This document shows positions 20,086 through 48,359 of a DNA stretch of 56,206 nt, piece after piece. The stretch is taken from positions 1 through 56,206 of the IMG/VR virus record IMGVR_UViG_3300030107_003883; one strand, given 5' to 3'. A program made the translations under genes and the position numbers. Origin of the DNA: a virus. Its lineage: Duplodnaviria; Caudoviricetes. Position 1 is the stretch's first letter. Each line of letters starts with the position of its first letter. The notes beneath the pieces were generated by a model, which saw nothing but the letters and a program-made list of their open reading frames with translations, was not told where the DNA came from and did not search any database.

Positions 20086-23000
20086 ATGAGTGATAATATA
20101 AGAAAGCAAGCAGAATATTGGGGGCAACAACAGTCGCCTGACTTAAACTTTTTAAAGCAAAAATATAAAGATATGCAACCCTGGCAAGTTAAAGCTAGGG
20201 ATCCTCAAGCTTATAAAGCATTATATGAACAAGCAGCACCTGGTCCAACAGGTATAGCGGACTCTAATCCTGTAACAGATTTCCTTGGAAATATGGCATG
20301 GGCTGTAGGTGAAGAGATGACATTAGGAGCTTCACTAGGTATTGATTTATATGCAGGCGGAGAAGTAAGGGAAACATTAGGCGTTCAAGAATGGGCTGAT
20401 AACTCATGGGCTGGTAGACTTGGTCAAATAGCTGGTCAAGGTGTAGGTTTTATATCTGGTGTAGGACTTATAGGAAAAGGACTAGGAAAAGCTAGTGGTG
20501 CATTAAACTTAGGTCGTAAAGCATTATCTAAAGGAGCTGGTAAAAAGCTTAGATCTGAAACTGGAGAGACTTTAAATAAGATAGTAGGCGATGTAGATGA
20601 TGCAGTAATGAGAGACTTTTCTGAAGAACTATATCAGACAGGTGCAGTTGCTATTAAAACAGGTCAAGAAGCTGCTAAAGCTTTTGGAAGAACTGCCACC
20701 AAGGTAGATCCTTTCAGCAACTTTGACTTACAAGGGGAAATTAGTAAAAACTTTGATGAACTATTACTAGAAAATATTAAGAAGAATAAAAACCTTGGGG
20801 ATAATGTACGTCAGAATCTCTTAGATCCAGCAAATAAGGAGCTTAGAGACGAGATTAGAGATAATAGTATAAAAGCTGCACAAGAATTTAGATCTGAAGA
20901 TGTGCCACGTGTTTTGGCTGCTAAATGGAGTGGTGTTCTAGGTGATCACGGAGCTCAGGTTGCTGGAGATATGGCTTACGAAGCTACTCTTCTTGGTTTA
21001 CATGGTGGATTAAGGAACTTAGTTGAAAGGGGAGTGTCTGCAGGACTAGATATAGATGATGAAAACTATGGAAGAAGGTCTTTCTTTAGTGACGTAATGC
21101 ATGGTATGATAGTTGGTGGAATGTTAGCACCTACTAGATATATACCTGGAGGAGCTAGAGTAGAGGTAGACTTAAGTAAGGGCCTTGGAGGTGTTAGGTC
21201 TGGTGTATTAGCTAATGTAAAGCAAATGGGACAGTCTGTTATACGTAAATACAATGGCAAAAAAGCTACAGATTATACCCCTAAACAGCTACAAACTATG
21301 ATGCGTAATGTTTGGTATGGTTCTAATAAAAACACAGAGTTTTTCAGAGGTATAGAGGGCTGGACTCCTAGACTAGTAGAAGATGTAGGTATGTTAGCTA
21401 ATGCTACTAATGTTAAAGTATTGCAAAATGTATATAATAAAGTCTCTAGAGATCTATCTAAAAACCTTATACCTATGTTAAGAAGAGAAGTTGCTAGAGA
21501 TTTATTTGAATCTGCTCCTAGATATGTAGTAGGCTCAGCTGTTATGAATGCTCAGAACTGGTATCAGAACTATGATCATATCACTGCAGATCAGTTTATA
21601 ACAGATGCTGTAGTTGGTATGTTTTATATGAAAAGAGGTAAAGTATTAAGTGGAAAGCCACCACTTCCTAAGTTTTTAACTTCCAGTGATATTAAAGGTA
21701 ATGAAATAGCTAAAATGTCACAAGCATTTGATGTATTAGGCTATGATAAGACTCAGCTTGATTTTATGGGTAGTGCTTGGGATAAAGTATATGCAGATCA
21801 TATGTTAGGAGAAAGCATTATTCAGCGTGGTAAGGATACTATGCCTGATATACGTAATGCTAATGCTATACTTGAAAAAGATATGGTTCCTGCTACTGAC
21901 TATGTTCAGATGCTTAAAGATCCTACTTTAAAAAACTTTAACGAACAAATATCCTTAGAGTATACACAAAGATTATCAATGGCTAGTGATCTTAGGGCCC
22001 AAGGAAGAGAAGCTGAAGCTAGAAGAATGGAACTTAGTGCTAATGATTTATTAGCTAAGTCAGATATAGCTCAAATGCTAGTTAATGATCTTAACTTTGG
22101 AATGGTTGACAAGAATGTACAACCTATGACTAAAGATGCTGCTATAGAATTTATAAATAGAATGAGCAGTATAGAGCTTAATGGTAAAAAGTTAACTATA
22201 GATAATGTATCTGCTGAAATACAAAAGCTTCGTAAAGCTGCTGCATATAAGACTACATCTCAAATACAGTTAGCTATGGAAGACTATATTAAAAACTCTT
22301 TAGACGCTTTTGGCTTATGGGATGTATCAATGGAAAGTGCTGGAACTATAAACATCCACCCTAGCACTAAAGACTTGTTATTAAAGAAGTTAGCTAGTAA
22401 TGAAAAGCTTGGAGAATACTCTACAGCTATCATGGCATTACATGATGTATTAGAAATGGCTAGCAGAACAGGCGTTATAAGATTTACTGATACTGCTATG
22501 GCTTGGAAAGCAGAAGGTGGACAAAAGCTAACAGCAGAAAAGTTAAATAGAATAGCTGATGAGTATAAAATCAATACAGAAAGAATGCATGATCTTGTTA
22601 TGGGTACAGAAAATAGTGGATGGAGAGACCTTGTAACAAATAAAAGAACTAGTGAAGCTTTTATGGATGATCATATACTAGCTTCTACACCTATATGGCA
22701 TGCAATAGATGCTAATATGAAGCACTTACGTAATGATATAGGGCTACATATACTAACAGGTAAAGGTGGACAAGGAACAGAGCAAACTATAGCCTTACAT
22801 CAAGAGATAATGAATGACTTATTTAAAGGTAAGCGTAAGATTATATTGTCTGAAGAAGCAGGAGAAAGAACTTTAACTGATAAGCCACATCTTATTAATG
22901 TGTTAAATAACCTTAACAGGTCATGGCAGCTAACAGAAGGTGTTGGTAAGAGAGGTGTAACAGAGATACGCTCTAGTCAGTTAGAGGCTATACATGAAAA

Positions 23001-26000
23001 GCTTTCAAGAGAAGTAGGTAATGTATTTAGTGACAACAATGCATTCCAGGCTTTTAAAAACTATTTAGATAATACATATATAGACAATATACTAGGTGGT
23101 AGCGCTTCATATGGTGCTAAGAAAGCATTATCAAGTCTTATACAGGAAGGAAATCCTTTAGCTTTCACTGATCCAGTCACTAATAAACGTGTTATAGCTT
23201 CTGGTGAGGCTATTAGAACAGCTATATTAGGTTCTGAATATGGTATTGAAATGCAAAGAATGAACCCTGAGTTTGCAAGTGAAGTAAGAACTATGGTTGA
23301 TAGGTATATAAAAGAGATTGAAAGACCTGTTAAAGGCAAAGGAGACTACTTAGAATTTAGTGATAAGATTACAATAGATCAAACATCTCAGCATAACCCT
23401 AAAGACTGGATGCAATCCTTACTATCTATGGAAGCATTATTAGATGGTAGTAAAGTAGTTGATATATCTAGAGTTGTAAAGAATGTACATCTACTAGAGT
23501 CTATGAACAGTTCTTTTAATACAGCTGCACACTTTGAAAAACTAGCTCAAGTTGCAGATAATAAAATTACAGTAGAACAGCTCAGGGCTGCAATGGATGG
23601 GCTTAGAACTAATACTAGACAGTTATCTTATTTAGTTACTGATGCTATGCAGAATGGTGATTTCTTAATGATACGTCAATTAGTAGATGCTCAATATGAT
23701 ATACAGAGAGCTATAGATAGAGCTAAACAGTTTACTGCAGAGGGTAAAGGTAGTATAGAAGAAGTTAGCTCTACTATATATAAAGTAACTATGGAAGCTA
23801 TAAATGAGCGTAATAGAAAGCTTTCTTTAGATAGTGTAGAATCTGTAGATGAGTTTATTAGACGTCAAGAAGAGGTAGTCACACGTCAAGACAGGTCAGG
23901 TAAGCCTGTATTAGAGAGTCAAACTATATCTGAGAGTCAGTATAAAAGTAAGTATGGTATAGATCAGACATCTTTAGACCTTATTAAAGGGGATATGGTT
24001 GCATTTAGCAACACTGCACATGACCTGGCAGCAGAGGTTAGCAGTTTTATGAACAATTTCCCTGGCGTCAAGCAAAGACCTGATGCTATGAGAACTGTAT
24101 TAGAAAATTTAGAAAACTTAGGCATACCTGCTGATGCCTATATGTCTCAAATAGTAAAGCCATGGATAGAAACTCAATGGACTAAAGCAAAAGCCTTAGA
24201 TGATAAGCTTAATCGTGATACATTCTTGACTGATACTGCTCAACTACTAGTTAGTGCTTGGGCTCAAAAGAAAGTCACTCTAGGGAACTTTGAGAACGGA
24301 GCATTAAGACTATCAACCAAGTCAGTTACTAACTGGGATGCAGGATTCTTAGGCCTTATTAACTCTTTAGGCATACAGAATAAGCCTAACTCATTTATGA
24401 TAATGGGAGAGCAGTCAATAGCTGGTAATCGTACTGTTAATAAACTTAGCGAAACAATGATGCAAGAGATTAATGCTAAGTTGGCAGCGGGAGCTAATAT
24501 AAAAGTAGAAAGATCAGAGCTATTCTCTGCTAATGAACGTGCTGAATTGGAAAAAATGCTAAAAGATATGCCTATAGTTGGTGAAGGTGCTGATGGCAGG
24601 GCTCAATTCCAAGCATTCAGGCTAGATGAAAAGCAAGCTATTATATTATCTACTAGTACATATCCAGATATAGTTAATAGATGGCGTTCTAAAGGCGAAG
24701 GTTCATTGTTTAACGAGCTTTCTAAAGTTGTTGGAGAGACAGCAGCTAAGAACTATTTAGAGAAGTCTTTAAAGTTAAATGAGTTTAAGAATGATCAGAT
24801 AGATACTCAGAAGTTTACTACTGAAACTATAGAAGGTTTACTTTTAACTACAAGACTATTAAAAGATAATGCATTTTACTTAGATAAGCTGGTTAAAGGT
24901 GAAATGACTAGAGAAGAAGTGTTTAAAGCATTAAAGTACTTAAAGCTATCTAACCCAAGAGGTGGTATTACTTTAAATAAAAAGACTGTAGATATAATGA
25001 GGTACTTTACTAAAGAAATAATGCCTGATACACCTCAGTATAAAGATATAAAAAGACATTTTGAAGGGCAAATGAGTAGACCTCACAGGCAAGTTACATT
25101 GTTTGATGAAAAGGGCCCTAATGAGAACTTCTTTAATAGTGATGCAGAGTATAGAGCAAAGGTTAGAGATCAGTATGTAAATGAAAGAGGCTTTAGTGTA
25201 GAAGAAGCTACTAAGATAGCTAATGAGTTGGCAGATAAACTTGCACCTGAAGCTAAGTCTAAAGTAGATGGTGAACAATATTTAAGTTTACCAGAAATGA
25301 CAGCATTATTAACCTCTAGAGGGGCTGATGCCAGTTGGTTTGTATTTGATGCTAATAATAATGTAGTTGGCTTTAACACTATTATTAAGCCTGTTGTATC
25401 TCAAAGTAAGGTTAATCCTGATGGCTCTATGTCTGTAGTTATAAACAAGACAGCTTTCAAGTATGATCCTACTATGGATGCAGCTATGAAGAATGCTGAT
25501 GGTACATATTTTACAGATAGTATAGCATTTAAATCTGCTAGTAAAGTAAACCAAAGTAAAGCGTCTGCAGAAAGTCCTTGGGTTGAAAATGCAATACCTG
25601 TACAGACACCTACAGATGTCACTAAACCATGGAAGCCTCAAGTTGCATTAGATATTCAAAACCAGAATACAGCTGGAAGTAATATGAGAATAGCAAGTGT
25701 AGACAGGGCTAATATGATGCTTAAGTCTATTAGTGGTCCTCATGATGGCACATTAAGTATGGCTTTTGGTAACTTCTTATCTAATCCAGCACAAGATGTA
25801 ATGAACTCTTGGTTAAAATCTACTAATGCAGTTAAAGATTTAAGTCAGCACATGCAAGACCTATATCAGAATCCATTTGCTTTTAAAGCTATAGCTGAAA
25901 AGCTTAAAGGATTTGATAAAGAGACTGGAGATATAACAGCTAGTCTTACAGGTTTAGAGGCAGTATTATCCGAAGGTGGTATACCTATATATGAACACTT

Positions 26001-29000
26001 GAGACCTCAAATAGAGAGAGCATTAGTTGGTAACTATTTAGGCTCTAGAAACTTTGCATCAGGCAATATAGAAAATGGTGCATATAATGTTATGACTGCA
26101 GCAGACGGACTTAGTCTTCCAGTAAGAGAGAATGGCATGCAATCAAGATTTGGTGGTAGCGGTATACCTCATGCAGAGTCTAATAAAAATATTAGAACAA
26201 TGTTAAGAGATCCAGGTGGTACTGAAAGCGTATCTCTTATATTTAGAATAACAGAGTCTCAAGCTAATGCATTAAATAAGGCTTTTAAAGCTAAGTCTGA
26301 GGTTAAAACAGATATATTTAAAGCAGGTGATGAACTTATAGCATCTGGCGATGGTTCAGTATCAGGTACATTTGATGGCATGTTAAATAGAATCTATGGC
26401 TCTAACCTTGAAGGCTCTTACGGTCCAGGACGTAGAAATGCTATAATGGATAGACAAATATCATCTGAGATTGTTCAAGACCTTATAGGTAAGAACTATA
26501 AAGACATTATACAGGAAGCATTTGAGTTAAAGCATTCAGATGGAGCTGATAAAATACAGACTTTAGGTGAACTTGTAAGGTTTGTAGATGGTAAGCCTCT
26601 TAGCGCTGTTGAACGTCAAAATGAAAAGACATACTTTGAAGACTATACTATCACTGATGGAACAGGTTCAATGGCACAAAAACATGGCTATCAATCTGTT
26701 CGTGTTGCTGATGTAAACTTAAGAACTCCTAAGGATGGTATTAATAGTTGGGTTATAACTGGTATAGAAAAGCTTATAGACAGGCGTAAAGGTGCCGTAA
26801 GCGAAATGAACAGTCAAGACCTTATTAATCCTCAGGATGCTGACTTTGATTTAGATAAATCAGCAAGCTTCTTTGGAACACCAGGGCCTATCTTAAAAGA
26901 AATACATGCTGCATCAGGATACCATGAGATATCGTCAGAAAGAATATGGGATAAAGCATTAACTGAAGTTAGTTATGAAATGCCACAGATGAGCTCATAT
27001 ATAAATGAGTTAAAGAACTTAGAGTCTGCTAGGCCAGTAGTTGTTAGACAGCATTCTTTAACATCTTTAATGTATCAGTACTTTACATCTTTAGATGGAC
27101 TAGCTCAAAAGAATCTTATTAGACCTGGCTATGAAACAGGTATACATAGAGATAAATATGGCGTAGACAGAGTATCTCAAAGTACCCCAGGTACTAACGT
27201 TGTAATAGATTTTCAAGCTCCAAGTAATAGAACTAAATATCAGATAGCATTTAGACATGGTGGAGAGTTTGTTGACGCTATAGGGCATATGAAGAAAGTT
27301 ATTAAGCATACTATAGATACTTACGGTGATCTTACTAAGCTTAACGATAGAAATATGATGGAAGAGTTTTGGTTCAATGATAACTTTGGACTGTTTAAAG
27401 TTGTAGAAACAGAAGGCTTTAATGCTGGTAGAGAAGTTGGCTGGAACAATTCAGTTGCTGAGATAGCACAGTTTAAAAAACAGATTAAAGATGGGTTCTT
27501 GAATCCTATGAACAAGATCTTTAATCTAGGCCTAGGCGTTGAAACATTAAGTGATGGTACAAGTAGAAAGCTTGGCTTTTATGACTATGTATCTACCTTT
27601 GAAAGAGCTAGGTCAGACATGTCACGTACTGCTGAGTTTAATAAAGAGTTAAAACCTTTTATTGATAACTTTTTAGGGTTCTTAGGTGAGCGTCCAGGCG
27701 CTGCAGGTACTAGTAATCATCCTTTAGTTGATGGTCTTATTAAAATGACTGAAGCTCATAATAAAAACTTTCCTATGCGTATAGAGCGTGGCAATGAGCT
27801 AGGCAATATGCTTAACGGAGCTGCAGTAGATGTTAAGAGTGTTGAAGTTCAAAATGCTATCAATAAGTATATGCAGAACGAAAAGAATTGGGTTCGCTTT
27901 AGCTCATTACAATGGGAAGTAAATCAGCTAGAGAATACATTAAATGACATGCGTGCACGTAGGCAGGACAAGACTAGGCAGTATGAAAATATGGAAAAGC
28001 GTAAGCAAATGTTAACTGAAACATTAGGCCAGGTAGAAGTAATAGCTAATGATAAATTTGTTAGAGAGTCTACTCCAAGAAGAAGGTCAGGTCAAATGGC
28101 AGAAGCTGATGCTAACTATGCAGTATATAAAGTAAGAAATGGTGATGTTAAAAGCGTAACAAGAATTAGTAAAGGAGATAGGTTCTTTTGGAATGCTGGT
28201 GATGTTGTTGTAAAGAATCCTAGAACATTTAGATTCACTGATCCTATACAGCAAAAGCATTTACGCACAATGCATAGAGCCTTTGGTAATTTACTAACAG
28301 GAGTTGAAAAGTTTGATGTTGCAGACAGCAGAGGATATGTCAGGAGTAAGATAAATGATATTAAGCAAGAGTTTTATAATATAGACACACAGTTCTCTGA
28401 TGCATCTGTTAGAAACAACAGTATGTATAAAGATATATATAGCACAAAATTAGAAGCTCTAAAAACTTCGTTTAACGACATAATGATAGCAAGGGGACCT
28501 CAGTATGCTAAGCAGTTTTTACATACGTTATTGACCCCAAGAGTGTCCAATTCTGAGATGTCTATACTAGGTTATGATAATAAGAATGAGTCTTATTACT
28601 CAGGCTTTAGATTTCAGAGTAATAAATCTAGTGAACAGATGGTTATGAGGTTCATGACCGCGGCTATGGATGGTAAAGTATCAGGATTTAATAAAGCTTT
28701 AGCAAAAGAATGGTTTGCAGAAATAGAACAAGCTCGTAAAATAGCCTACCTGATGACACATGATAAATCATTAAGTGGTGATGCATTTAAGATAGGAAAT
28801 CTAGACAGAGGTCTTAATCCTAGCTTTGATGTGTTACCTAGAACAGATGCTAAGCCTAAGTTATTAGATGTCAAGGCTAATAATGAACAGGCTCGTAAAA
28901 CTATACAATCATATCTTACAGGGTCATACTTTTTAGATCCTATAGAACTGTATAGATTAACAGTAGGTCTAGATAAGACAATGAATGAAATGCCTAGCCC

Positions 29001-29205
29001 TCAGTTGATGGGTGATCGTGTTAAAAATCTATGGACTGATGTAGGTAAGAACTCAAATACTATAGAAGTTAAAGAAGATCTAGGTAGGGCAGTATATAGA
29101 ATGTCTAAAGTACCTATTGAGAATAGTATGAATGGCAACAGAGAACATATAAGACGTAAAACATTTTCAGAGAAGCTCTGGGAAGAGATGAACTGTAATA
29201 ATTAA
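20086..29205 (+). CDS. Giant virion protein with two-barrel (double-psi beta-barrel) RNA polymerase domain; putative virion RNAP
   Basis: DADFDLD at aa 2251-2257 (26836-26856) preceded by R2213-T-P; upstream VDGEQYLS (D1728), K1768-P, K1788 and DSIAFKSASKV (K1820), in the order seen in crAss-like virion RNAPs and QDE-1-type polymerases. Confidence 0.8.
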   Translation: MSDNIRKQAEYWGQQQSPDLNFLKQKYKDMQPWQVKARDPQAYKALYEQAAPGPTGIADSNPVTDFLGNMAWAVGEEMTLGASLGIDLYAGGEVRETLGVQEWADNSWAGRLGQIAGQGVGFISGVGLIGKGLGKASGALNLGRKALSKGAGKKLRSETGETLNKIVGDVDDAVMRDFSEELYQTGAVAIKTGQEAAKAFGRTATKVDPFSNFDLQGEISKNFDELLLENIKKNKNLGDNVRQNLLDPANKELRDEIRDNSIKAAQEFRSEDVPRVLAAKWSGVLGDHGAQVAGDMAYEATLLGLHGGLRNLVERGVSAGLDIDDENYGRRSFFSDVMHGMIVGGMLAPTRYIPGGARVEVDLSKGLGGVRSGVLANVKQMGQSVIRKYNGKKATDYTPKQLQTMMRNVWYGSNKNTEFFRGIEGWTPRLVEDVGMLANATNVKVLQNVYNKVSRDLSKNLIPMLRREVARDLFESAPRYVVGSAVMNAQNWYQNYDHITADQFITDAVVGMFYMKRGKVLSGKPPLPKFLTSSDIKGNEIAKMSQAFDVLGYDKTQLDFMGSAWDKVYADHMLGESIIQRGKDTMPDIRNANAILEKDMVPATDYVQMLKDPTLKNFNEQISLEYTQRLSMASDLRAQGREAEARRMELSANDLLAKSDIAQMLVNDLNFGMVDKNVQPMTKDAAIEFINRMSSIELNGKKLTIDNVSAEIQKLRKAAAYKTTSQIQLAMEDYIKNSLDAFGLWDVSMESAGTINIHPSTKDLLLKKLASNEKLGEYSTAIMALHDVLEMASRTGVIRFTDTAMAWKAEGGQKLTAEKLNRIADEYKINTERMHDLVMGTENSGWRDLVTNKRTSEAFMDDHILASTPIWHAIDANMKHLRNDIGLHILTGKGGQGTEQTIALHQEIMNDLFKGKRKIILSEEAGERTLTDKPHLINVLNNLNRSWQLTEGVGKRGVTEIRSSQLEAIHEKLSREVGNVFSDNNAFQAFKNYLDNTYIDNILGGSASYGAKKALSSLIQEGNPLAFTDPVTNKRVIASGEAIRTAILGSEYGIEMQRMNPEFASEVRTMVDRYIKEIERPVKGKGDYLEFSDKITIDQTSQHNPKDWMQSLLSMEALLDGSKVVDISRVVKNVHLLESMNSSFNTAAHFEKLAQVADNKITVEQLRAAMDGLRTNTRQLSYLVTDAMQNGDFLMIRQLVDAQYDIQRAIDRAKQFTAEGKGSIEEVSSTIYKVTMEAINERNRKLSLDSVESVDEFIRRQEEVVTRQDRSGKPVLESQTISESQYKSKYGIDQTSLDLIKGDMVAFSNTAHDLAAEVSSFMNNFPGVKQRPDAMRTVLENLENLGIPADAYMSQIVKPWIETQWTKAKALDDKLNRDTFLTDTAQLLVSAWAQKKVTLGNFENGALRLSTKSVTNWDAGFLGLINSLGIQNKPNSFMIMGEQSIAGNRTVNKLSETMMQEINAKLAAGANIKVERSELFSANERAELEKMLKDMPIVGEGADGRAQFQAFRLDEKQAIILSTSTYPDIVNRWRSKGEGSLFNELSKVVGETAAKNYLEKSLKLNEFKNDQIDTQKFTTETIEGLLLTTRLLKDNAFYLDKLVKGEMTREEVFKALKYLKLSNPRGGITLNKKTVDIMRYFTKEIMPDTPQYKDIKRHFEGQMSRPHRQVTLFDEKGPNENFFNSDAEYRAKVRDQYVNERGFSVEEATKIANELADKLAPEAKSKVDGEQYLSLPEMTALLTSRGADASWFVFDANNNVVGFNTIIKPVVSQSKVNPDGSMSVVINKTAFKYDPTMDAAMKNADGTYFTDSIAFKSASKVNQSKASAESPWVENAIPVQTPTDVTKPWKPQVALDIQNQNTAGSNMRIASVDRANMMLKSISGPHDGTLSMAFGNFLSNPAQDVMNSWLKSTNAVKDLSQHMQDLYQNPFAFKAIAEKLKGFDKETGDITASLTGLEAVLSEGGIPIYEHLRPQIERALVGNYLGSRNFASGNIENGAYNVMTAADGLSLPVRENGMQSRFGGSGIPHAESNKNIRTMLRDPGGTESVSLIFRITESQANALNKAFKAKSEVKTDIFKAGDELIASGDGSVSGTFDGMLNRIYGSNLEGSYGPGRRNAIMDRQISSEIVQDLIGKNYKDIIQEAFELKHSDGADKIQTLGELVRFVDGKPLSAVERQNEKTYFEDYTITDGTGSMAQKHGYQSVRVADVNLRTPKDGINSWVITGIEKLIDRRKGAVSEMNSQDLINPQDADFDLDKSASFFGTPGPILKEIHAASGYHEISSERIWDKALTEVSYEMPQMSSYINELKNLESARPVVVRQHSLTSLMYQYFTSLDGLAQKNLIRPGYETGIHRDKYGVDRVSQSTPGTNVVIDFQAPSNRTKYQIAFRHGGEFVDAIGHMKKVIKHTIDTYGDLTKLNDRNMMEEFWFNDNFGLFKVVETEGFNAGREVGWNNSVAEIAQFKKQIKDGFLNPMNKIFNLGLGVETLSDGTSRKLGFYDYVSTFERARSDMSRTAEFNKELKPFIDNFLGFLGERPGAAGTSNHPLVDGLIKMTEAHNKNFPMRIERGNELGNMLNGAAVDVKSVEVQNAINKYMQNEKNWVRFSSLQWEVNQLENTLNDMRARRQDKTRQYENMEKRKQMLTETLGQVEVIANDKFVRESTPRRRSGQMAEADANYAVYKVRNGDVKSVTRISKGDRFFWNAGDVVVKNPRTFRFTDPIQQKHLRTMHRAFGNLLTGVEKFDVADSRGYVRSKINDIKQEFYNIDTQFSDASVRNNSMYKDIYSTKLEALKTSFNDIMIARGPQYAKQFLHTLLTPRVSNSEMSILGYDNKNESYYSGFRFQSNKSSEQMVMRFMTAAMDGKVSGFNKALAKEWFAEIEQARKIAYLMTHDKSLSGDAFKIGNLDRGLNPSFDVLPRTDAKPKLLDVKANNEQARKTIQSYLTGSYFLDPIELYRLTVGLDKTMNEMPSPQLMGDRVKNLWTDVGKNSNTIEVKEDLGRAVYRMSKVPIENSMNGNREHIRRKTFSEKLWEEMNCNN

Positions 29206-43889: not shown

Positions 43890-43902
43890 ATGTTAATTGT
43901 TG

Positions 43903-43975
43903 AGGCGGTGACAGGAGTCGAACCTGCTATCTCTTGGTTATGAGCCAAGCGTGTAAACCATTTCACTCCACCGCT
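43903..43975 (-). tRNA. tRNA-Met (anticodon CAT); initiator, elongator or Ile2 identity unresolved
   Basis: AGCGGTG..CACCGCC acceptor with A1:C72 mismatch; CTTGG-CTCATAA-CCAAG anticodon arm; GCAGG-TTCGACT-CCTGT T arm; CCA not encoded. Confidence 0.85.
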
Positions 43976-44681: not shown

Positions 44682-44716
44682 GTGATGTAAAACACAAAGC
44701 TATTATTGGGAGTATA

Positions 44717-44986
44717 ATGAAGACTAAGAAAATAACATATAGGCAGTTAATGGACTATATAGAGCAGTTAGAGTTACAGGTTCAGAACAATCAAAAGGCA
44801 GTATATGATGTATCTGGGCTGTTAAATGAGTACGTAGAAATGAAGAAAGATGTTAAGAAACTACAGAATCATATGCAAAAGCGTTTTGGATCTGATGCAG
44901 AGATTCCGACTCGTTGGTCGGTATTTTCTAAGTTCATAAAAAACAAGTACTTACAGCTTAAGAAAGTTCTTGTATTTGGAAAATAA
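44717..44986 (+). CDS. Hypothetical protein
   Basis: GGGAG RBS; 89 aa. Confidence 0.7.
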   Translation: MKTKKITYRQLMDYIEQLELQVQNNQKAVYDVSGLLNEYVEMKKDVKKLQNHMQKRFGSDAEIPTRWSVFSKFIKNKYLQLKKVLVFGK

Positions 44987-44998
44987 ACCTAGTAAACT
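44970..44998 (+). promoter_or_regulatory. Sigma70-type promoter
   Basis: TTGTAT-17-TAAACT upstream of the AAGGAGG RBS of 45035. Confidence 0.5.
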
Positions 44999-45034
44999 AC
45001 TACTAGTAACTACGCTTAATATAAAGGAGGTCAC

Positions 45035-45220
45035 ATGAAAGTTTATACTTTAACAATAGTGTATGATGATGAGACTGATGAGATAGAGTATTTAAGCGAG
45101 GAGATTGAAGGTAGCGCAGAAAGCATTCTTGAGGAATGTGGCGCTATAACAAGGGGAGACGAAAACGATAGCGATGAAATAGAGATTAGTACAGGCTTCA
45201 ACATAATAGGAGAAGCTTAA
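45035..45220 (+). CDS. Small, highly acidic protein
   Basis: AAGGAGG RBS; D/E-rich, 61 aa. Confidence 0.7.
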   Translation: MKVYTLTIVYDDETDEIEYLSEEIEGSAESILEECGAITRGDENDSDEIEISTGFNIIGEA

Positions 45221-45259
45221 TAAAACGCTAAAGCGTTTTGATTCTCGAAAGGATAAAGA

Positions 45260-45421
45260 GTGGAGAAAGAAAAGGATGAATCTCGTAGTGGAGGTCTTGG
45301 GGACACTCTTGCGAGAGTTATTCATAGTACTACTGGCATTAAGCCTTGTGATAATTGTACTAGGCGTAAAGAAAAATTAAATAAATGGTTCCCATATACT
45401 AAAAGGAGTGTTGACACATGA
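45260..45421 (+). CDS. Small conserved-type phage protein (GLGDT...CxxC..RKEKLN..FPY; 53 aa; not in ORF track)
   Basis: AAGGA RBS + GTG; ATGA overlap with the next ORF. Confidence 0.65.
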   Translation: MEKEKDESRSGGLGDTLARVIHSTTGIKPCDNCTRRKEKLNKWFPYTKRSVDT

Positions 45422-45576
45422 ACGGGAAAGATCAAGCTGTCCATATATGACCATATTCGGGTAAACCTCATCCGGTGGATGAGAAACATAGCATTCGAGG
45501 TGCTGATATACATGGAGAAGAAACAAATTCGGTTGAATATCGGTATCCAAAAACGGTATACAAAGAAGGGAAGTAA
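45418..45576 (+). CDS. Candidate selenoprotein, 52 aa with UGA at codon 11 (MNGKDQAVHI-U-PYSGKPHPV...)
   Basis: AAAAGGAG RBS; ATGA overlap upstream and TAATG overlap downstream; in-frame TGA at 45448-45450; SECIS-like hairpin. Confidence 0.6.
45467..45483 (+). promoter_or_regulatory. SECIS-like hairpin
   Basis: CUCAUCC-GGU-GGAUGAG; loop begins 23 nt after the UGA. Confidence 0.6.
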
Positions 45577-45626
45577 TGAGAAAAAGATTTTTGAAGCGGG
45601 TAGAAAGTATGAAAGGAAGCTGTTAA
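45576..45626 (+). CDS. 16-aa coupling peptide MRKRFLKRVESMKGSC
   Basis: TAATG overlap; its stop abuts the TTG start of TerS. Confidence 0.35.
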   Translation: MRKRFLKRVESMKGSC

Positions 45627-46373
45627 TTGAGGTATTACAGCGTGAACGGGATAGAGCACAGAGTTTACGATCCTGATGATCGTGTAGAAAATGGACTCGT
45701 TGTTATTGCTGATTGGCGCGATAGTCGCGTTGGCGACTGGGTCAAAGCAGACGATGACTGTATCATCCAGGTGTTAAGAAAAGGTAAAATGACGCGTAAG
45801 TACGGGAGGAACAAGGTCAGAGAATACGTGGGCACGTGCACAGGGACATTTCCTGTAGGCAAAAACGTTAAAATGGACACAAGTCGCAGAACAAACATTT
45901 ATACTTTCGGGGGTAGCAAAAGTTCTGAAGACATTCTCTTGGATCGGACCACACTAACCCGTTGCGAACTAGTATTTGTCCAATTCTTGACATCTGGCAT
46001 GAGTCCACAAGAGGCTTATCTAAAGGCATATCCAACTAAGAATAAGGATTATGCGCATGTTAAAGCAACACAACTAATGAGAACAGATAGGATATACACT
46101 GCAATGAAAGAAGAATTAAAACCAGTATGCGAAGAGCTAGGAATAGACCCTAAGTCTGTATTGAAAGACATACAAGAAGCATCAAAGAACTCCGAGAAGG
46201 AAGATGTGAGGCTTAGAGCATTATTTAAATTAGCTGATATACTAGATTTAGAAGATAAGAATAAAACAACGGTCACTCAAGTCAGTGGAGCATTATTCCA
46301 GGGCTTTAGCCCTGAGCAATTAGAAAGCGCGGAGCGACCACAATTAATAGAAGGAAATAAAGATGGCGAATGA
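45627..46373 (+). CDS. Terminase small subunit with N-terminal extension
   Basis: LTRCELVFV...QEAYLKAY...ATQLM HTH; VRLRALFKLADIL oligomerization helix; upstream of TerL. Confidence 0.7.
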   Translation: MRYYSVNGIEHRVYDPDDRVENGLVVIADWRDSRVGDWVKADDDCIIQVLRKGKMTRKYGRNKVREYVGTCTGTFPVGKNVKMDTSRRTNIYTFGGSKSSEDILLDRTTLTRCELVFVQFLTSGMSPQEAYLKAYPTKNKDYAHVKATQLMRTDRIYTAMKEELKPVCEELGIDPKSVLKDIQEASKNSEKEDVRLRALFKLADILDLEDKNKTTVTQVSGALFQGFSPEQLESAERPQLIEGNKDGE

Positions 46374-46803
46374 TGCATTTGATATGATGAATAGTGCAGA
46401 TCCTGATATGCATGTTACAGGTGGTGCTATATTAGTTTCTGAATATGAACAGAATATGGATCCTGGTGATCAGAGTAAGTATGAAAAAGCAGTAATGAAC
46501 TCTTTTCAATCTGCTTATGCAGCTGATCCATATAAAAGAAATTTAGATTTTCAACATTGGTTAGGATCGTTAGATCCAAATCTATATAGAGAAAGAGCTA
46601 AAAAGTATGAAGATATAAAAGCTCAAAATAATGGTTATTCATCTTTAGTAGAAAGAGAAGATGGAAGATTATTAGAAGATGCTGGTATGATTCAATCTTT
46701 AGCTCATCTACATACAGGAAGAATTGAAGATTTAATAGAAATAGCTAAAAATCTAGATCCACAGCAAACACCATTTCAACAAGCTGAATTTAGACGTCCT
46801 TAG
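46363..46803 (+). CDS. Hypothetical protein between TerS and TerL
   Basis: Coupled ORF, 146 aa. Confidence 0.65.
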   Translation: MANDAFDMMNSADPDMHVTGGAILVSEYEQNMDPGDQSKYEKAVMNSFQSAYAADPYKRNLDFQHWLGSLDPNLYRERAKKYEDIKAQNNGYSSLVEREDGRLLEDAGMIQSLAHLHTGRIEDLIEIAKNLDPQQTPFQQAEFRRP

Positions 46804-48359
46804 TGGCTAATATAAATACACAGAATGTTTCTACTGCTGAAGAGCAGTTAATAATGGCAAAGAATGATATAATTTCATTTGGTAAATTGTTTTTACCAGA
46901 TGATTTTATGAGATCTGAAACACCATTCTTTCATTATCAGGTAGCAGATGTTGTAAATGATTTAAGTATTAGGCAGTTAGCAGTAATCCTGCCTAGGGGT
47001 CATGGAAAGACAGTATTAACTAAATGCAGTATATTACATGATTTTGTATTTGCACAAGATCCTCTCTTCTATGGATGGGTGGCTGCATCAAGTAAAATAT
47101 CAGTTCCAAATCTAGATTATATAAAATACCATTTGGAGTATAACGATAAATTTTTGTATTATTTCGGCAATTTAAAAGGAAGAAAGTGGACAGAAGATGA
47201 TATCGAGCTTAAAAACGGCACTAAGCTTATTAGTAAGTCTAACCTCTCAGGTATTAGGGGAGGAGCTAAGCTTCATAAAAGATATGATCTCATCGTGCTC
47301 GATGACTTTGAGGATGAAAATAATACCGTTACACCTGAGTCTAGGGCTAAAATTTCTAATCTTGTTACAGCTGTTGTGTTCCCTGCTTTGGAGCCTGGGA
47401 CGGGCCGTCTTAGGATTAATGGAACTCCCGTTCATTTTGATTCTTTTATCAATAATATCCTCGTCAATTACGATAGGGCAAAGTCCGCAGGGGAAAAATT
47501 TAGTTGGAAAGTAATTACGTATAAAGCAATACAAGACGATGGAACACCTTTATGGCCAGGTTGGTTTGGTCAAAAGGAAATGGAAAGAAAGAAGAAGTTC
47601 TATAGTGATTCTGGCCAGCCTCAGAAATTCTATCAAGAATATATGATGGAAGTTCAAAGTGCTGAAGATGCAATCTTTACCAGGGATCACATTAAATATT
47701 GGGAGGGAAGTTTTTTACATGACGACGAAACGGGAATATCGTACGTACACACAAAAGATGGAGATACTAAGCCAGTTAATGTATTCACGGGTGTTGACCC
47801 CGCTACTGATTCTGCTCGTAGGGACAGCGACTTCAGTGTTTTACTTACTATCGGTGTTTGTCCAGATAACAATGTATATGTGCTCGATTATGTGCGTAAG
47901 CGGAGCTTGCCTGTTCTTGGGATACCAGGGGACGGTAAAAAAGGAATTGTGGATCACATTTTCAAGCTTAATAACATCTTCCATCCTTCCCTTTTCACAG
48001 TCGAAGACACTACAATGTCTAAGCCAGTTTTTCAGGCGCTTATTGCAGAAATGCGTAGGCGGAATGACTTCGCTGTCAAGTACGTTGCTGAAAAGCCAGG
48101 TAATAGAATGTCGAAACGTGACAGGATACAGGAAATACTTGCTCAAAGGTTTTCAATCGGTTCGGTCCACATTAAGAAAGACATGTATGATCTTCAAAGA
48201 GAGATTATAACTTTTGGACCTAGAATGGGTCATGATGATACAATAGATGCCTTAGCATACGCATGTAAGTATGCACATCCACCAAAAGGCATTATGACTA
48301 ATAAAGAAGGTGGATATTATAAACATAAACCAAAAGCTAAAAATTGGGTAACTGCATAA
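46803..48359 (+). CDS. terL: Terminase large subunit
   Basis: Walker A PRGHGKT; Walker B LIVLDDFE; GTP motif; nuclease GVDPA...DFS and HDDTIDALAY. Confidence 0.95.
   Translation: MANINTQNVSTAEEQLIMAKNDIISFGKLFLPDDFMRSETPFFHYQVADVVNDLSIRQLAVILPRGHGKTVLTKCSILHDFVFAQDPLFYGWVAASSKISVPNLDYIKYHLEYNDKFLYYFGNLKGRKWTEDDIELKNGTKLISKSNLSGIRGGAKLHKRYDLIVLDDFEDENNTVTPESRAKISNLVTAVVFPALEPGTGRLRINGTPVHFDSFINNILVNYDRAKSAGEKFSWKVITYKAIQDDGTPLWPGWFGQKEMERKKKFYSDSGQPQKFYQEYMMEVQSAEDAIFTRDHIKYWEGSFLHDDETGISYVHTKDGDTKPVNVFTGVDPATDSARRDSDFSVLLTIGVCPDNNVYVLDYVRKRSLPVLGIPGDGKKGIVDHIFKLNNIFHPSLFTVEDTTMSKPVFQALIAEMRRRNDFAVKYVAEKPGNRMSKRDRIQEILAQRFSIGSVHIKKDMYDLQREIITFGPRMGHDDTIDALAYACKYAHPPKGIMTNKEGGYYKHKPKAKNWVTA

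What the first reader, a model, noticed from the sequence alone, without database searches (positions are those of the whole stretch)
45418..45576. Hidden candidate selenoprotein 1: in-frame UGA with SECIS-like hairpin upstream of terminase
Seen: AAAAGGAG RBS, ATG overlapping the upstream stop, 10 codons, TGA, then 41 more open codons ending in a TAATG overlap that continues the coupling chain to TerS. Sixteen nt after the UGA is a perfect 7-bp stem with a GGU loop. Read as Sec, the context is U-P-Y-S-G, resembling CPxSG metal-binding motifs. Known: bacterial SECIS elements lie just 3' of the UGA, within the coding sequence, with a G early in the apical loop. Inference: this is a phage selenoprotein, or a selenium-dependent readthrough switch gating translation of the packaging genes.
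Basis: partly seen in the sequence, partly recalled or inferred. Interest (0 to 1): 0.85.

Follow-up and report, generated by a model that had tools for sequence, protein, structure and literature searches.

The report
Candidate phage selenoprotein with SECIS-like hairpin

Summary
Window 45418-45576 holds ATG, 10 codons, TGA (45448-45450), 41 more codons and TAA. A 7-bp hairpin with a GGU loop starts 16 nt after the TGA.

- **TGA is conserved.** Four retrievals blind to this codon found only TGA at the site: 26/26, 39/39 and 86/86 homologues. A DNA pattern search of IMG/VR gave about 105 real TGA hits and 0 real TGT/TGC/TGG hits.
- **Both flanks are coding.** They evolve as protein in one frame, with the motif H-x-[TGA]-P-x5-H-P-V-x3-H. 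No internal start codon could explain this.
- **TGA is otherwise a normal stop.** It ends 9 of 46 large ORFs. Trp is TGG 190 times.
- **The hairpin is selected as RNA.** Rare codons CCG and GTG are fixed, and base pairs covary in two alternative registers. Both registers put G-U in the apical loop.
- **The window's hairpin meets the published bacterial SECIS criteria.**

Best reading: a phage selenoprotein mini-domain, probability about 0.55. Main rival: SelB-independent UGA read-through, about 0.27. Against selenocysteine: almost no Cys forms, an unknown host, and a third of members with weak hairpins. The idea that it gates TerS translation is not supported, because the gene sits elsewhere or is fused to other proteins in relatives.

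The parts
45260..45421 (+). Upstream 53-aa ORF (GLGDT...CDNC...FPY); its TGA stop overlaps the ATG of the candidate gene
   Evidence: matches phrog_32048 (unknown function), E 3e-11
45401..45408 (+). Shine-Dalgarno-like AAAAGGAG, 9 nt before the ATG
   Evidence: read directly
45418..45576 (+). Candidate recoded gene: 52 codons with in-frame TGA at codon 11, plus the TAA stop
   Evidence: 137 distinct homologous proteins in viral and metagenome contigs
45448..45450 (+). In-frame TGA, proposed Sec codon, followed by C (UGA-C context)
   Evidence: TGA in 26/26, 39/39 and 86/86 homologues. About 105 real TGA hits against 0 real TGB hits in IMG/VR. No other letter in contigs of 3 independent runs.
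45442..45489 (+). Core mini-domain H9-x-[TGA]-P-x5-H18-P-V20-x3-H24
   Evidence: Invariant columns in 126 sequences. Third-position variation far exceeds first and second positions. AF2 places strands 8-10 and 17-19 as a beta-hairpin; highest pLDDT block 78.
45467..45483 (+). SECIS-like hairpin: 7-bp stem CTCATCC/GGATGAG, apical loop GGT 45474-45476, 23 nt between UGA and loop
45576..45626 (+). 16-codon mini-ORF (MRKRFLKRVESMKGSC) between the candidate gene and TerS
   Evidence: read directly; absent in relatives such as L052, L050 and L051, where the TerS ATG overlaps the stop of the gene
45627..46373 (+). Small terminase subunit, TTG start, TGA stop
   Evidence: Pfam Terminase_2, E 3.3e-5, just under cut-off; 87 relatives matched from residue 1

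Best explanation
The ORF at 45418-45576 encodes a small basic protein whose codon 11, UGA, is read as selenocysteine by the host's SelB/tRNA-Sec machinery. The 7-bp GGU-loop hairpin that starts 16 nt downstream, inside the coding sequence, would act as a bacterial-type SECIS. The residue sits in a 16-residue mini-domain, H-x-U-P-x5-H-P-V-x3-H. I infer that this is a His3-Sec metal- or heme-binding knuckle. The mini-domain is mobile. It occurs as stand-alone 36-75-aa proteins, at the C-terminal end of roughly 170-270-aa proteins, and at the N-terminus of roughly 500-750-aa proteins, all in the packaging/structural modules of related uncultured marine phages. Shown: the UGA is translated through and is under strong purifying selection, and the hairpin is selected at the RNA level. 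Inferred: the inserted residue is Sec, SelB binds the hairpin, and the domain binds a metal.
For: - **TGA invariance at DNA level, with codon-blind retrievals.**
  - 26/26 loci found via TerS.
  - 39/39 unique instances found via a peptide pattern that does not include the site.
  - 86/86 real unique contexts in JGI metagenome contigs.
  - The IMG/VR pattern with TGB (C, G or T at the third position) gave 8 hits, none homologous. The same pattern with TGA gave 113 stretches; 111 were parsed, about 105 real and 6 spurious.
- **Translation across the UGA.**
  - In 131 unique contexts, conserved columns on both sides vary almost only at third positions. His-2 entropies are 0/0/0.44, Pro+1 0/0/1.47, His+7 0/0/0.76.
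  - Ser is spelled both TCN and AGT.
  - Only 3/131 have any ATG/GTG/TTG in codons +1 to +8, and 47/131 lack one at +9 too.
  - 131/139 contexts have an in-frame ATG upstream with no stop between, 6 have only GTG/TTG, 2 run off a contig, and none lacks a start. 77 of the ATGs overlap the previous gene's stop.
- **No reassigned code.** TGA ends 9 of 46 large ORFs, including TerS. There are 190 TGG codons in 26 ORFs. No UCA-anticodon tRNA was found in the window or in 1.77 Mb of related loci.
- **Hairpin selected as RNA.**
  - CCG and GTG are 2% (7/443) and 6% (51/826) of Pro and Val codons in the window, yet they occupy codons +8 and +9 in 84/131 contexts.
  - Class A alignment: 97.6% of cells paired, 0/500 shuffles as high, and 2 pairs with double changes. 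One is CG to GC through a Pro-to-Arg change plus a synonymous Val change in L052.
  - Class A pair 24-32 is UA 22, UG 41, CG 6, CA 0.
  - In class B/C the register shifts. Pair 24-34 is CG 18, UA 20, UG 1, against 5 non-pairs. This links a synonymous His position to an E/K change. Fisher p = 1.7e-8, not corrected for phylogeny.
  - All classes place G28-U29 in the apical loop.
- **Fit to the bSECIS model.** The model was quoted from the passages I read in review PMC13188914: loop 3-9 nt, stem 4-16 bp, G in the first two loop positions, 16-37 nt from UGA, MFE <= -7.5. The window gives loop GGU, 7 bp, 23 nt, -8.0.
- **A natural comparator.** selD of MAG G002 has an in-frame TGA followed by an 8-bp hairpin with loop GUU, 27 nt away.
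- **Ligand-like residues.** Three invariant His plus the UGA residue have knuckle-like spacing on a predicted beta-hairpin.
- **Independent runs.** Contigs of 3 DNA runs from 3 studies show no other letter between 45434 and 45484, while 32 variant rows are listed elsewhere in 45295-45662.
Against: - **Almost no Cys forms.** The review says nearly all selenoproteins have Cys homologues. At DNA level I found 0 TGY. In protein databases there are only 2 Cys forms (P0023, P0069), beside 2 Arg (P0020, P0068) and 1 Gly (P0073). All of these are single-base neighbours of TGA with no enrichment for Cys.
- **Host unknown.**
  - No homologue was found in one genome per GTDB species or in 50,697 GenBank phage records.
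  - TerL relatives sit in 3 MAGs of unrelated lineages, two of them archaeal.
  - The one MAG with SelB has 52-55% GC against 36% for the phage-like contig, and it lacks the motif.
- **Many hairpins are weak.**
  - By strict criteria only 18 of 121 unique contexts pass.
  - 72 have a hairpin short of -7.5. Many of these are the G-U variant at -7.4.
  - 31 have none. These are class B, with 3 bp plus interrupted extensions.
- **Weak single-sequence signal.** The fold z-score is only -1.79, and Rfam gave no hit.
- **No redox partner.** The protein has no Cys, so it lacks the usual CxxU/UxxC redox signature.
- **Weak structural support.** The AF2 model is of low confidence (pLDDT 65.6), and no fold match has E below 4.7.
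- **No direct evidence.** Nothing here shows selenium incorporation.
Confidence: 0.55

Rival explanations
1. Programmed, SelB-independent UGA read-through. A fraction of ribosomes insert a standard residue (most likely Trp via near-cognate tRNA-Trp) at a deliberately weak UGA-C stop, perhaps helped by the downstream hairpin. The TGA is kept because it sets a low dose of the full-length product, or a fixed ratio of short to extended forms.
For: - The base after UGA is C in 131/131 contexts. From recall, UGA-C is the weakest RF2 context in E. coli.
- TGA invariance with essentially no Cys or Trp forms is what a regulatory stop predicts.
- In the C-terminal architecture (L243, L212, L260, L300), a roughly 160-250-aa protein would gain only a 13-14-residue extension. 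That resembles classical read-through extensions.
- About a third of members lack a canonical SECIS-type hairpin.
- Hosts with Sec machinery are not shown.
Against: - In the 125 stand-alone forms the pre-UGA product would be a peptide of 3 to about 25 residues. Only its last 2-3 residues are conserved, so there is no plausible functional short form.
- The conserved motif straddles the UGA (invariant His at -2, Pro at +1). The inserted residue is therefore part of the domain, whereas in read-through its identity is usually secondary (passage in PMC8310308).
- Low dose could be reached by a weak RBS, yet TGA is kept in three different protein architectures.
- RNA-level selection keeps a hairpin with G-U in the loop at fixed distance in two registers. 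From recall, no hairpin-stimulated read-through is established in bacteria.
Confidence: 0.27
2. One reading: a selenium-dependent read-through switch whose purpose is to gate translationally coupled expression of TerS and the packaging genes.
For: In the window and its closest relatives the gene lies just upstream of TerS in a chain of overlapping stop/start codons.
Against: - Position is not conserved. The gene lies between TerL and portal (L110, L111, L114), after TerL plus another gene (L037), after a 660-676-aa gene (L017, L019), or is fused to larger proteins.
- In the window a separate 16-codon ORF intervenes, and TerS has its own TTG start preceded by a GGAAG-like site.
- The downstream peptide is itself under protein-level selection.
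Confidence: 0.03
3. The UGA is an ordinary stop. The conservation downstream reflects an RNA element or a separate gene, not translation through the stop.
For: The hairpin is selected at RNA level. Gene callers using code 11 stop at the UGA.
Against: - Third-position-dominated variation and synonymous switching (Ser TCN/AGT, Gly GGN, Pro CCN) occur in codons +1 to +8.
- There is no start codon in that stretch in 128/131 contexts.
- Invariant His sits at -2 in the same frame.
- C-terminal conservation (Y-K-E-G) lies 25-50 codons downstream in the same frame.
Confidence: 0.03
4. The host reads TGA as a sense codon (code 4 Trp or code 25 Gly), so the gene is ordinary.
For: Public protein databases list 43 homologues with W at the site.
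Against: - TGA terminates 9 of 46 large ORFs in the window.
- Trp is TGG 190 times, and no other in-frame TGA occurs in the large ORFs.
- The 3 W-proteins traceable to DNA are TGA. P0005, P0018 and P0058 also run through their true TGA stop as '...KW...', which marks code-4 gene calls.
Confidence: 0.02

Closest known systems
Bacterial selenoprotein genes with an in-ORF SECIS (for example fdhF and selD; model of Zhang and Gladyshev as quoted in PMC13188914)
   Same: In-frame UGA with a conserved reading frame on both sides. A small hairpin lies inside the coding sequence just downstream, with G followed by G/U at the start of a 3-nt apical loop. Spacing is 23 nt, within the 16-37 range. Sec lies near the N-terminus, as in selD.
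   Different: It is carried by a phage with no cellular homologue. It has essentially no Cys-containing homologues and no Cys partner or thioredoxin-like fold. The hairpin is short (7 bp, -8.0 kcal/mol). About a third of members have only a 3-4-bp apical helix and fail the model.
Poxvirus glutathione peroxidase selenoproteins (molluscum contagiosum, fowlpox), the only viral selenoproteins named in the passages I read of PMC8310308
   Same: A virus-encoded UGA is decoded by the host's Sec machinery. In fowlpox the SECIS also lies in the coding region.
   Different: Those are captured cellular enzymes with eukaryotic SECIS elements and known function. This is a bacterial-type element in a phage, in a new 16-residue motif of unknown function.
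Phage Q-beta A1 read-through protein (recalled, not checked here)
   Same: A phage UGA is read through by a minority of ribosomes to extend a protein.
   Different: In Q-beta the short product is the major coat protein and the inserted residue is incidental. Here most members have no meaningful short product, and the site lies inside a conserved motif with a conserved downstream hairpin.
Stop-codon-recoded phages (TGA=Trp or TAG=Gln in late genes, with suppressor tRNAs; recalled)
   Same: In-frame stop codons occur in phage structural-module genes. Public gene callers translate them with code 4.
   Different: Recoding there is genome-wide and tRNA-driven. Here it is one codon per genome, TGA is a normal stop elsewhere, and no suppressor tRNA was found.
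Small zinc-knuckle or zinc-ribbon modules
   Same: Four ligand-like residues sit on and after a predicted beta-hairpin. The non-significant Foldseek rows are mostly small zinc-binding proteins.
   Different: The ligand set would be His3 plus Sec rather than Cys-rich. No significant sequence or fold match was found, and the model confidence is low.

Membership tests
Bacterial selenoprotein gene (Sec-UGA plus bSECIS) | In-frame UGA with protein-level conservation on both sides in one frame | tested here: met
Bacterial selenoprotein gene (Sec-UGA plus bSECIS) | Hairpin meeting the bSECIS model (loop 3-9 nt, stem 4-16 bp, G in the first two loop positions, 16-37 nt from UGA, MFE <= -7.5), in the window | tested here: met
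   Loop GGU, 7 bp, 23 nt, -8.0 kcal/mol. 0.8% of window TGA triplets pass. Criteria from PMC13188914.
Bacterial selenoprotein gene (Sec-UGA plus bSECIS) | The same hairpin model met across the family | tested here: inconclusive
   18 of 121 pass, 72 fall short of the energy threshold (many at -7.4), and 31 have none under strict perfect-stem rules. Covariation nevertheless supports a helix in both registers. BSepDB reports that 87.4% of accepted bacterial selenoproteins have canonical SECIS.
Bacterial selenoprotein gene (Sec-UGA plus bSECIS) | Sec/Cys pair: homologues with Cys at the UGA position | tested here: inconclusive
   0 TGY among about 105 IMG/VR and 86 metagenome DNA homologues. 2 Cys forms in protein databases, beside 2 Arg and 1 Gly.
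Bacterial selenoprotein gene (Sec-UGA plus bSECIS) | Host encodes SelA, SelB, SelC (tRNA-Sec) and SelD | not testable with these tools
   Host unknown. The phage itself has no SelB and no tRNA-Sec. MAG associations are unreliable.
Bacterial selenoprotein gene (Sec-UGA plus bSECIS) | Selenium actually incorporated (75Se labelling, mass spectrometry) | not testable with these tools
   Experiment needed.
Programmed stop-codon read-through (Q-beta A1 type) | Leaky stop context | tested here: met
   UGA followed by C in 131/131 contexts. That this context is leaky is recalled, not tested.
Programmed stop-codon read-through (Q-beta A1 type) | A functional short product plus an extended minor product | tested here: not met
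   Not met for the 125 stand-alone forms, where 3 to about 25 residues precede the UGA and only the last 2-3 are conserved. Conceivable only for the few C-terminal fusions.
Reassigned genetic code (table 4 or 25) | TGA not used as a stop; TGA frequent inside genes | tested here: not met
   9 of 46 ORFs end in TGA. 190 TGG codons and no other in-frame TGA in the large ORFs.
Zinc-knuckle or zinc-ribbon fold | Confident structural match to a metal-binding knuckle | tested here: inconclusive
   AF2 pLDDT 65.6 with a beta-hairpin at 8-10/17-19. Best Foldseek E is 4.7.

The most novel reading that the evidence does not exclude
This is the first phage-encoded selenoprotein family. It would be an obligately Sec-containing His3-Sec mini-domain with no tolerated Cys form and its own compact SECIS. 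The unit of 16 codons plus hairpin would be shuffled between stand-alone proteins and the termini of virion-module proteins in a widespread group of uncultured marine podovirus-like phages. These phages would then depend on host SelB and on selenium supply, which would restrict their host range to Sec-decoding bacteria.
Probability: 0.5. Interest if true: 0.9.

Novelty: new variant of a known kind. Interest (0 to 1): 0.8.

Why it matters
- **New in phages.** In what I could search, viral selenoproteins are limited to two poxvirus glutathione peroxidases (passages in PMC8310308). Three recent works on bacterial selenoproteomes do not mention phages or viruses in their main text.
- **Consequences if true.** A phage family that needs host Sec machinery would link phage fitness to selenium availability. 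It would give a compact natural SECIS-plus-motif cassette of about 50 nt. It would also add a selenoprotein family without Cys homologues, a class that Sec/Cys-pair searches miss by design.
- **Practical point.** Public protein databases already hold dozens of these proteins mistranslated with Trp because gene callers switched to code 4 on short contigs. That would mislead anyone testing the idea by protein search alone.
- **If the rival is right.** It would be an unusual hairpin-associated UGA read-through device in DNA phages.

Tried and rejected
- **Rfam.** A scan of 45380-45620 at E up to 10 gave only two chance rows and no SECIS family.
- **GenBank phages.** No DNA match to 44700-46900. 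No tblastn match to the stored homologue P0001. TerL is at most about 25% identical to cultured phages.
- **GTDB species genomes.** No homologue of the small protein.
- **Host inference from MAGs, rejected.**
  - TerL relatives (59-67% identity) lie in MAGs labelled Poseidoniales, Dehalococcoidia and Methanosarcinales.
  - Three unrelated lineages, a 36% versus 52-55% GC mismatch for G002, and no motif in any of the three MAGs point to mis-binning.
  - G002 does have SelB and a Sec-type selD. I used it only as a natural SECIS example.
- **Pfam and PHROGs.**
  - Nothing for the small protein.
  - Nothing informative for the fusion partners, apart from weak tape-measure-like rows for L116.
  - Most large window ORFs are unannotated.
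- **Structure.** The AF2 model is of low confidence and Foldseek against the PDB gave no row with E below 4.7. The VIA-align searches were not tried.
- **RNA evidence.** The metatranscriptome run X18 laid no contig on the stretch, so it says nothing about expression. All runs were Logan contigs, which cannot show rare variants.
- **Other candidates.** A scan of the window for other read-through candidates found nothing comparable. It was crude and also missed this gene because of overlapping spurious ORFs.
- **Literature.** Searches for phage selenoproteins found no report. These cover only the held open-access library.
- **Not used.** Complex prediction was not used.
Full report
**What is there.**
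The window is a complete 56,206-bp IMG/VR virus record with 36% GC. It encodes a tail fibre, primase/DnaB-like helicase, portal, major head protein, TerS and TerL. It is far from cultured phages: TerL is at most about 25% identical, and there is no DNA match.

- AAAAGGAG lies 9 nt before an ATG that overlaps the upstream gene's TGA.
- Ten codons follow, then TGA at 45448-45450, then 41 open codons and TAA.
- A perfect 7-bp hairpin, CTCATCC-GGT-GGATGAG, lies at 45467-45483.

One correction is needed. The TAATG at the end opens a 16-codon mini-ORF (45576-45626). TerS starts at TTG 45627.

**Is the UGA really conserved?**
I retrieved relatives in ways that do not look at the codon.
- Via TerS, 26 of 80 loci carried a homologue and all 26 had TGA at the aligned position.
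- Via a peptide pattern downstream of the site, there were 39 unique instances, all TGA.
- In JGI/TARA metagenome contigs there were 87 unique contexts. Of these, 86 were TGA. The 87th (CTA in L051) is not a homologue.
- A DNA pattern for the motif with C, G or T as the third base of the codon found 8 places in IMG/VR, none homologous.
- The same pattern with TGA found 113 stretches. I parsed 111, of which about 105 are real and 6 spurious (L229, L245, L255, L277, L307, L313).
- Contigs of three independent DNA runs cover the site. They show no other letter between 45434 and 45484, against 32 listed variant rows elsewhere in 45295-45662. Contigs cannot show rare variants.

**The Trp trap.**
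Protein databases seem to contradict this. Among homologues returned by two searches, 43 have W at the site, 1 has R, and one starts M-C-P. A cluster look-up added one C, one R and one G.

The three W-proteins I could trace to DNA (P0005 in L176, P0017 in L037/L042, P0033 in L114) are TGA in the DNA. P0005, P0018 and P0058 also run through their true TGA stop as '...KW...'. These are therefore code-4 gene calls on short contigs. The rare C, R and G forms are all single-base neighbours of TGA, so they do not single out Cys.

**Is the UGA translated through?**
Yes, by comparative evidence.
- In 131 unique 96-nt contexts, the conserved columns on both sides vary almost only at third positions.
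- Ser is spelled both TCN and AGT.
- Only 3 of 131 have a possible start codon in codons +1 to +8, and 47 also lack one at +9.
- An in-frame ATG with no intervening stop lies upstream in 131 of 139 contexts. Six have only GTG/TTG and two run off the contig. The ATG overlaps the previous gene's stop in 77 cases.
- Invariant residues in 126 aligned proteins are H9, the UGA site, P12, H18, V20 and H24.

**Not a different genetic code.**
TGA ends 9 of 46 large ORFs, TerS among them. Trp is TGG 190 times. The only tRNA is Met-CAT, which scores below the tRNA-Sec cut-off. There is no SelB. In 321 loci (1.77 Mb) ARAGORN found 19 tRNA-Met and one doubtful 'tta' tRNA, and none with a UCA anticodon.

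**The hairpin is selected as RNA.**
CCG and GTG are rare in this genome: 7 of 443 Pro codons and 51 of 826 Val codons. Yet they occupy codons +8 and +9 together in 84 of 131 contexts.

Class A (69 unique 48-nt sequences) has the 7-bp helix with loop GGU.
- On a 30-sequence alignment, 97.6% of cells pair. 0 of 500 shuffles reach this, and slid controls give 38-56%.
- Two pairs change on both sides. One is CG to GC in L052, made by a Pro-to-Arg change plus a synonymous Val change.
- Pair 24-32 is UA 22, UG 41, CG 6 and never CA.

Classes B and C (44 sequences; CCA/CCC GTT GGG) use a shifted register with loop AGUUG or GUU.
- Pair 24-34 is CG 18, UA 20, UG 1, against 5 non-pairs.
- This ties a synonymous His position to a Glu/Lys change. 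Fisher p = 1.7e-8, not corrected for relatedness.

In every class G28-U29, the first two bases of the invariant Val codon, sit in the apical loop.

**Fit to SECIS.**
The criteria come from passages of a 2026 review (PMC13188914): apical loop 3-9 nt, upper stem 4-16 bp, G in the first two loop positions, 16-37 nt between UGA and loop, and MFE <= -7.5 kcal/mol.
- The window's element has loop GGU, 7 bp, 23 nt and -8.0 kcal/mol.
- 17 of 2014 TGA triplets in the window pass the same test.
- Across 121 unique contexts, 18 pass and 72 have a qualifying hairpin short of the energy threshold. Many of those are the G-U variant at -7.4. A further 31 have none under my strict perfect-stem rule.
- BSepDB reports that 87.4% of accepted bacterial selenoproteins have canonical SECIS, so some failures are expected, but a third is a lot.
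- A natural comparator is the Sec-type selD of MAG G002. It has an 8-bp stem, loop GUU, 27 nt after its UGA.
- Single-sequence thermodynamics is unremarkable (z = -1.79), and Rfam has no match.

**What the protein is.**
The core is a 16-residue unit, [Y/H]-H-x-[UGA]-P-x5-H-P-V-x3-H. It occurs in three settings:
- as 125 distinct stand-alone proteins of 36-75 aa, usually ending Y-K-E-G-K;
- at the extreme C-terminus of 172-267-aa Gly/Met/Pro-rich proteins (L243, L212, L260, L300);
- at the N-terminus of 512-754-aa proteins (L116, L230).

Its genomic position varies within the packaging/structural module. That rules out a dedicated role in gating TerS.

AF2 with 126 sequences gives a low-confidence model (pLDDT 65.6). 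Residues 8-10 and 17-19 form a beta-hairpin, and the best-scoring block lies over the motif. Foldseek finds nothing significant, though the weak rows are mostly small zinc-binding modules.

Three invariant His plus the UGA residue suggest a four-ligand metal site. A Cys-Pro-aromatic heme motif is another recalled resemblance. This is inference only. The protein has no Cys, so the usual redox pair is absent. No Pfam or PHROG family matches.

**Weighing the readings.**
Recoding of the UGA is well supported. Which residue goes in is not shown.

For Sec:
- RNA-level selection keeps a small G-U-loop hairpin at constant, SECIS-like distance in two registers.
- The codon sits inside a ligand-like motif.
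- TGA persists through three protein architectures.
- Most members lack any meaningful short product.

Against Sec:
- Cys forms are nearly absent.
- Many hairpins are weak.
- The host is unknown. TerL relatives in three MAGs of unrelated lineages look mis-binned.
- There is no direct selenium evidence.

I put Sec at about 0.55, SelB-independent read-through at about 0.27, and the remaining readings at a few percent each.

**Novelty.**
- Searches of the held literature found no phage selenoprotein.
- A review of viral recoding names only two poxvirus selenoproteins in the passages I read.
- The 2026 review, BSepDB and deep-Sep have no occurrence of 'phage' or 'virus' in their main text.
- The GOS study found new families through Sec/Cys pairs (section 7 read). 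That method would miss this family.
- Supplements were not available.

Noticed in passing
window 45576-45626 (+): A 16-codon mini-ORF (MRKRFLKRVESMKGSC) sits between the candidate gene and TerS. Its ATG overlaps the candidate's TAA, and TerS's TTG start follows its TAA directly. It is absent in relatives such as L050, L051 and L052, where the TerS ATG overlaps the candidate's stop.
   Followed up: partly
window 43902-43975 (-): The only tRNA is tRNA-Met (anticodon CAT). 19 tRNA-Met genes were also found in the related loci. It scores 34.9 bits against the tRNA-Sec model, below the 47-bit cut-off.
   Followed up: partly
L031:1635-1723 (-): ARAGORN calls an 89-nt 'tRNA-Stop' with anticodon tta in a related 104-kb viral contig. 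It may be spurious or an ochre suppressor.
   Followed up: no
database proteins P0001-P0067: Public protein collections hold dozens of these proteins translated with W at the TGA. Some (P0005, P0018, P0058) run through their real TGA stop. These are code-4 gene calls on short contigs and would mislead protein-only searches.
   Followed up: yes
L316, L317, L318 (MAGs G001-G003): Phage-like contigs with TerL 59-67% identical to the window's are binned into MAGs labelled Poseidoniales, Dehalococcoidia and Methanosarcinales. L317 has 36% GC, against 52-55% in other contigs of its MAG. This is probably mis-binning.
   Followed up: partly
L319 (G002:C83), TGA at locus position 1531: The selD of the Dehalococcoidia-labelled MAG has an in-frame TGA followed by an 8-bp hairpin with a GUU triloop, 27 nt downstream. 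It is a natural SECIS with a 3-nt G-U loop.
   Followed up: partly
window 45451-45462 and relatives: The Pro codon right after the UGA is CCG in 52 of 131 contexts, although CCG is 2% of Pro codons genome-wide. RNAfold pairs CCG with CGG of the Ser-Gly codons (CCG-UAUU-CGG). This may be a second small helix directly after the UGA.
   Followed up: no
window 45417-45431 and 45642-45655: Near-repeat xTGAACGGGAxAGA at the start of the candidate gene (M-N-G-K-D) and at the N-terminus of TerS (V-N-G-I-E). It may be chance.
   Followed up: no
L052:1712-1828, L094:1579-1731, L100:1983-2249, L105:2358-2471: In several relatives the gene is preceded by a small, very basic protein with two Cys about 10-12 residues apart (MPSKEKCSKI...C..Y..), often ending in G-Y and overlapping the candidate's ATG as TAATG. 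It could be a recurrent partner gene.
   Followed up: no
window 20086-29205 (+): A single 3039-aa ORF, followed by a 950-aa ORF that has no PHROG match. The 3039-aa ORF itself was not searched. They are probably large virion or ejected proteins.
   Followed up: no
proteins P0023, P0068, P0069: One lineage (PYSGKPHPVGERHA.APKGTSHW...) has lost the TGA and shows both Cys and Arg at the site in otherwise near-identical proteins. This suggests relaxed constraint after the loss.
   Followed up: partly
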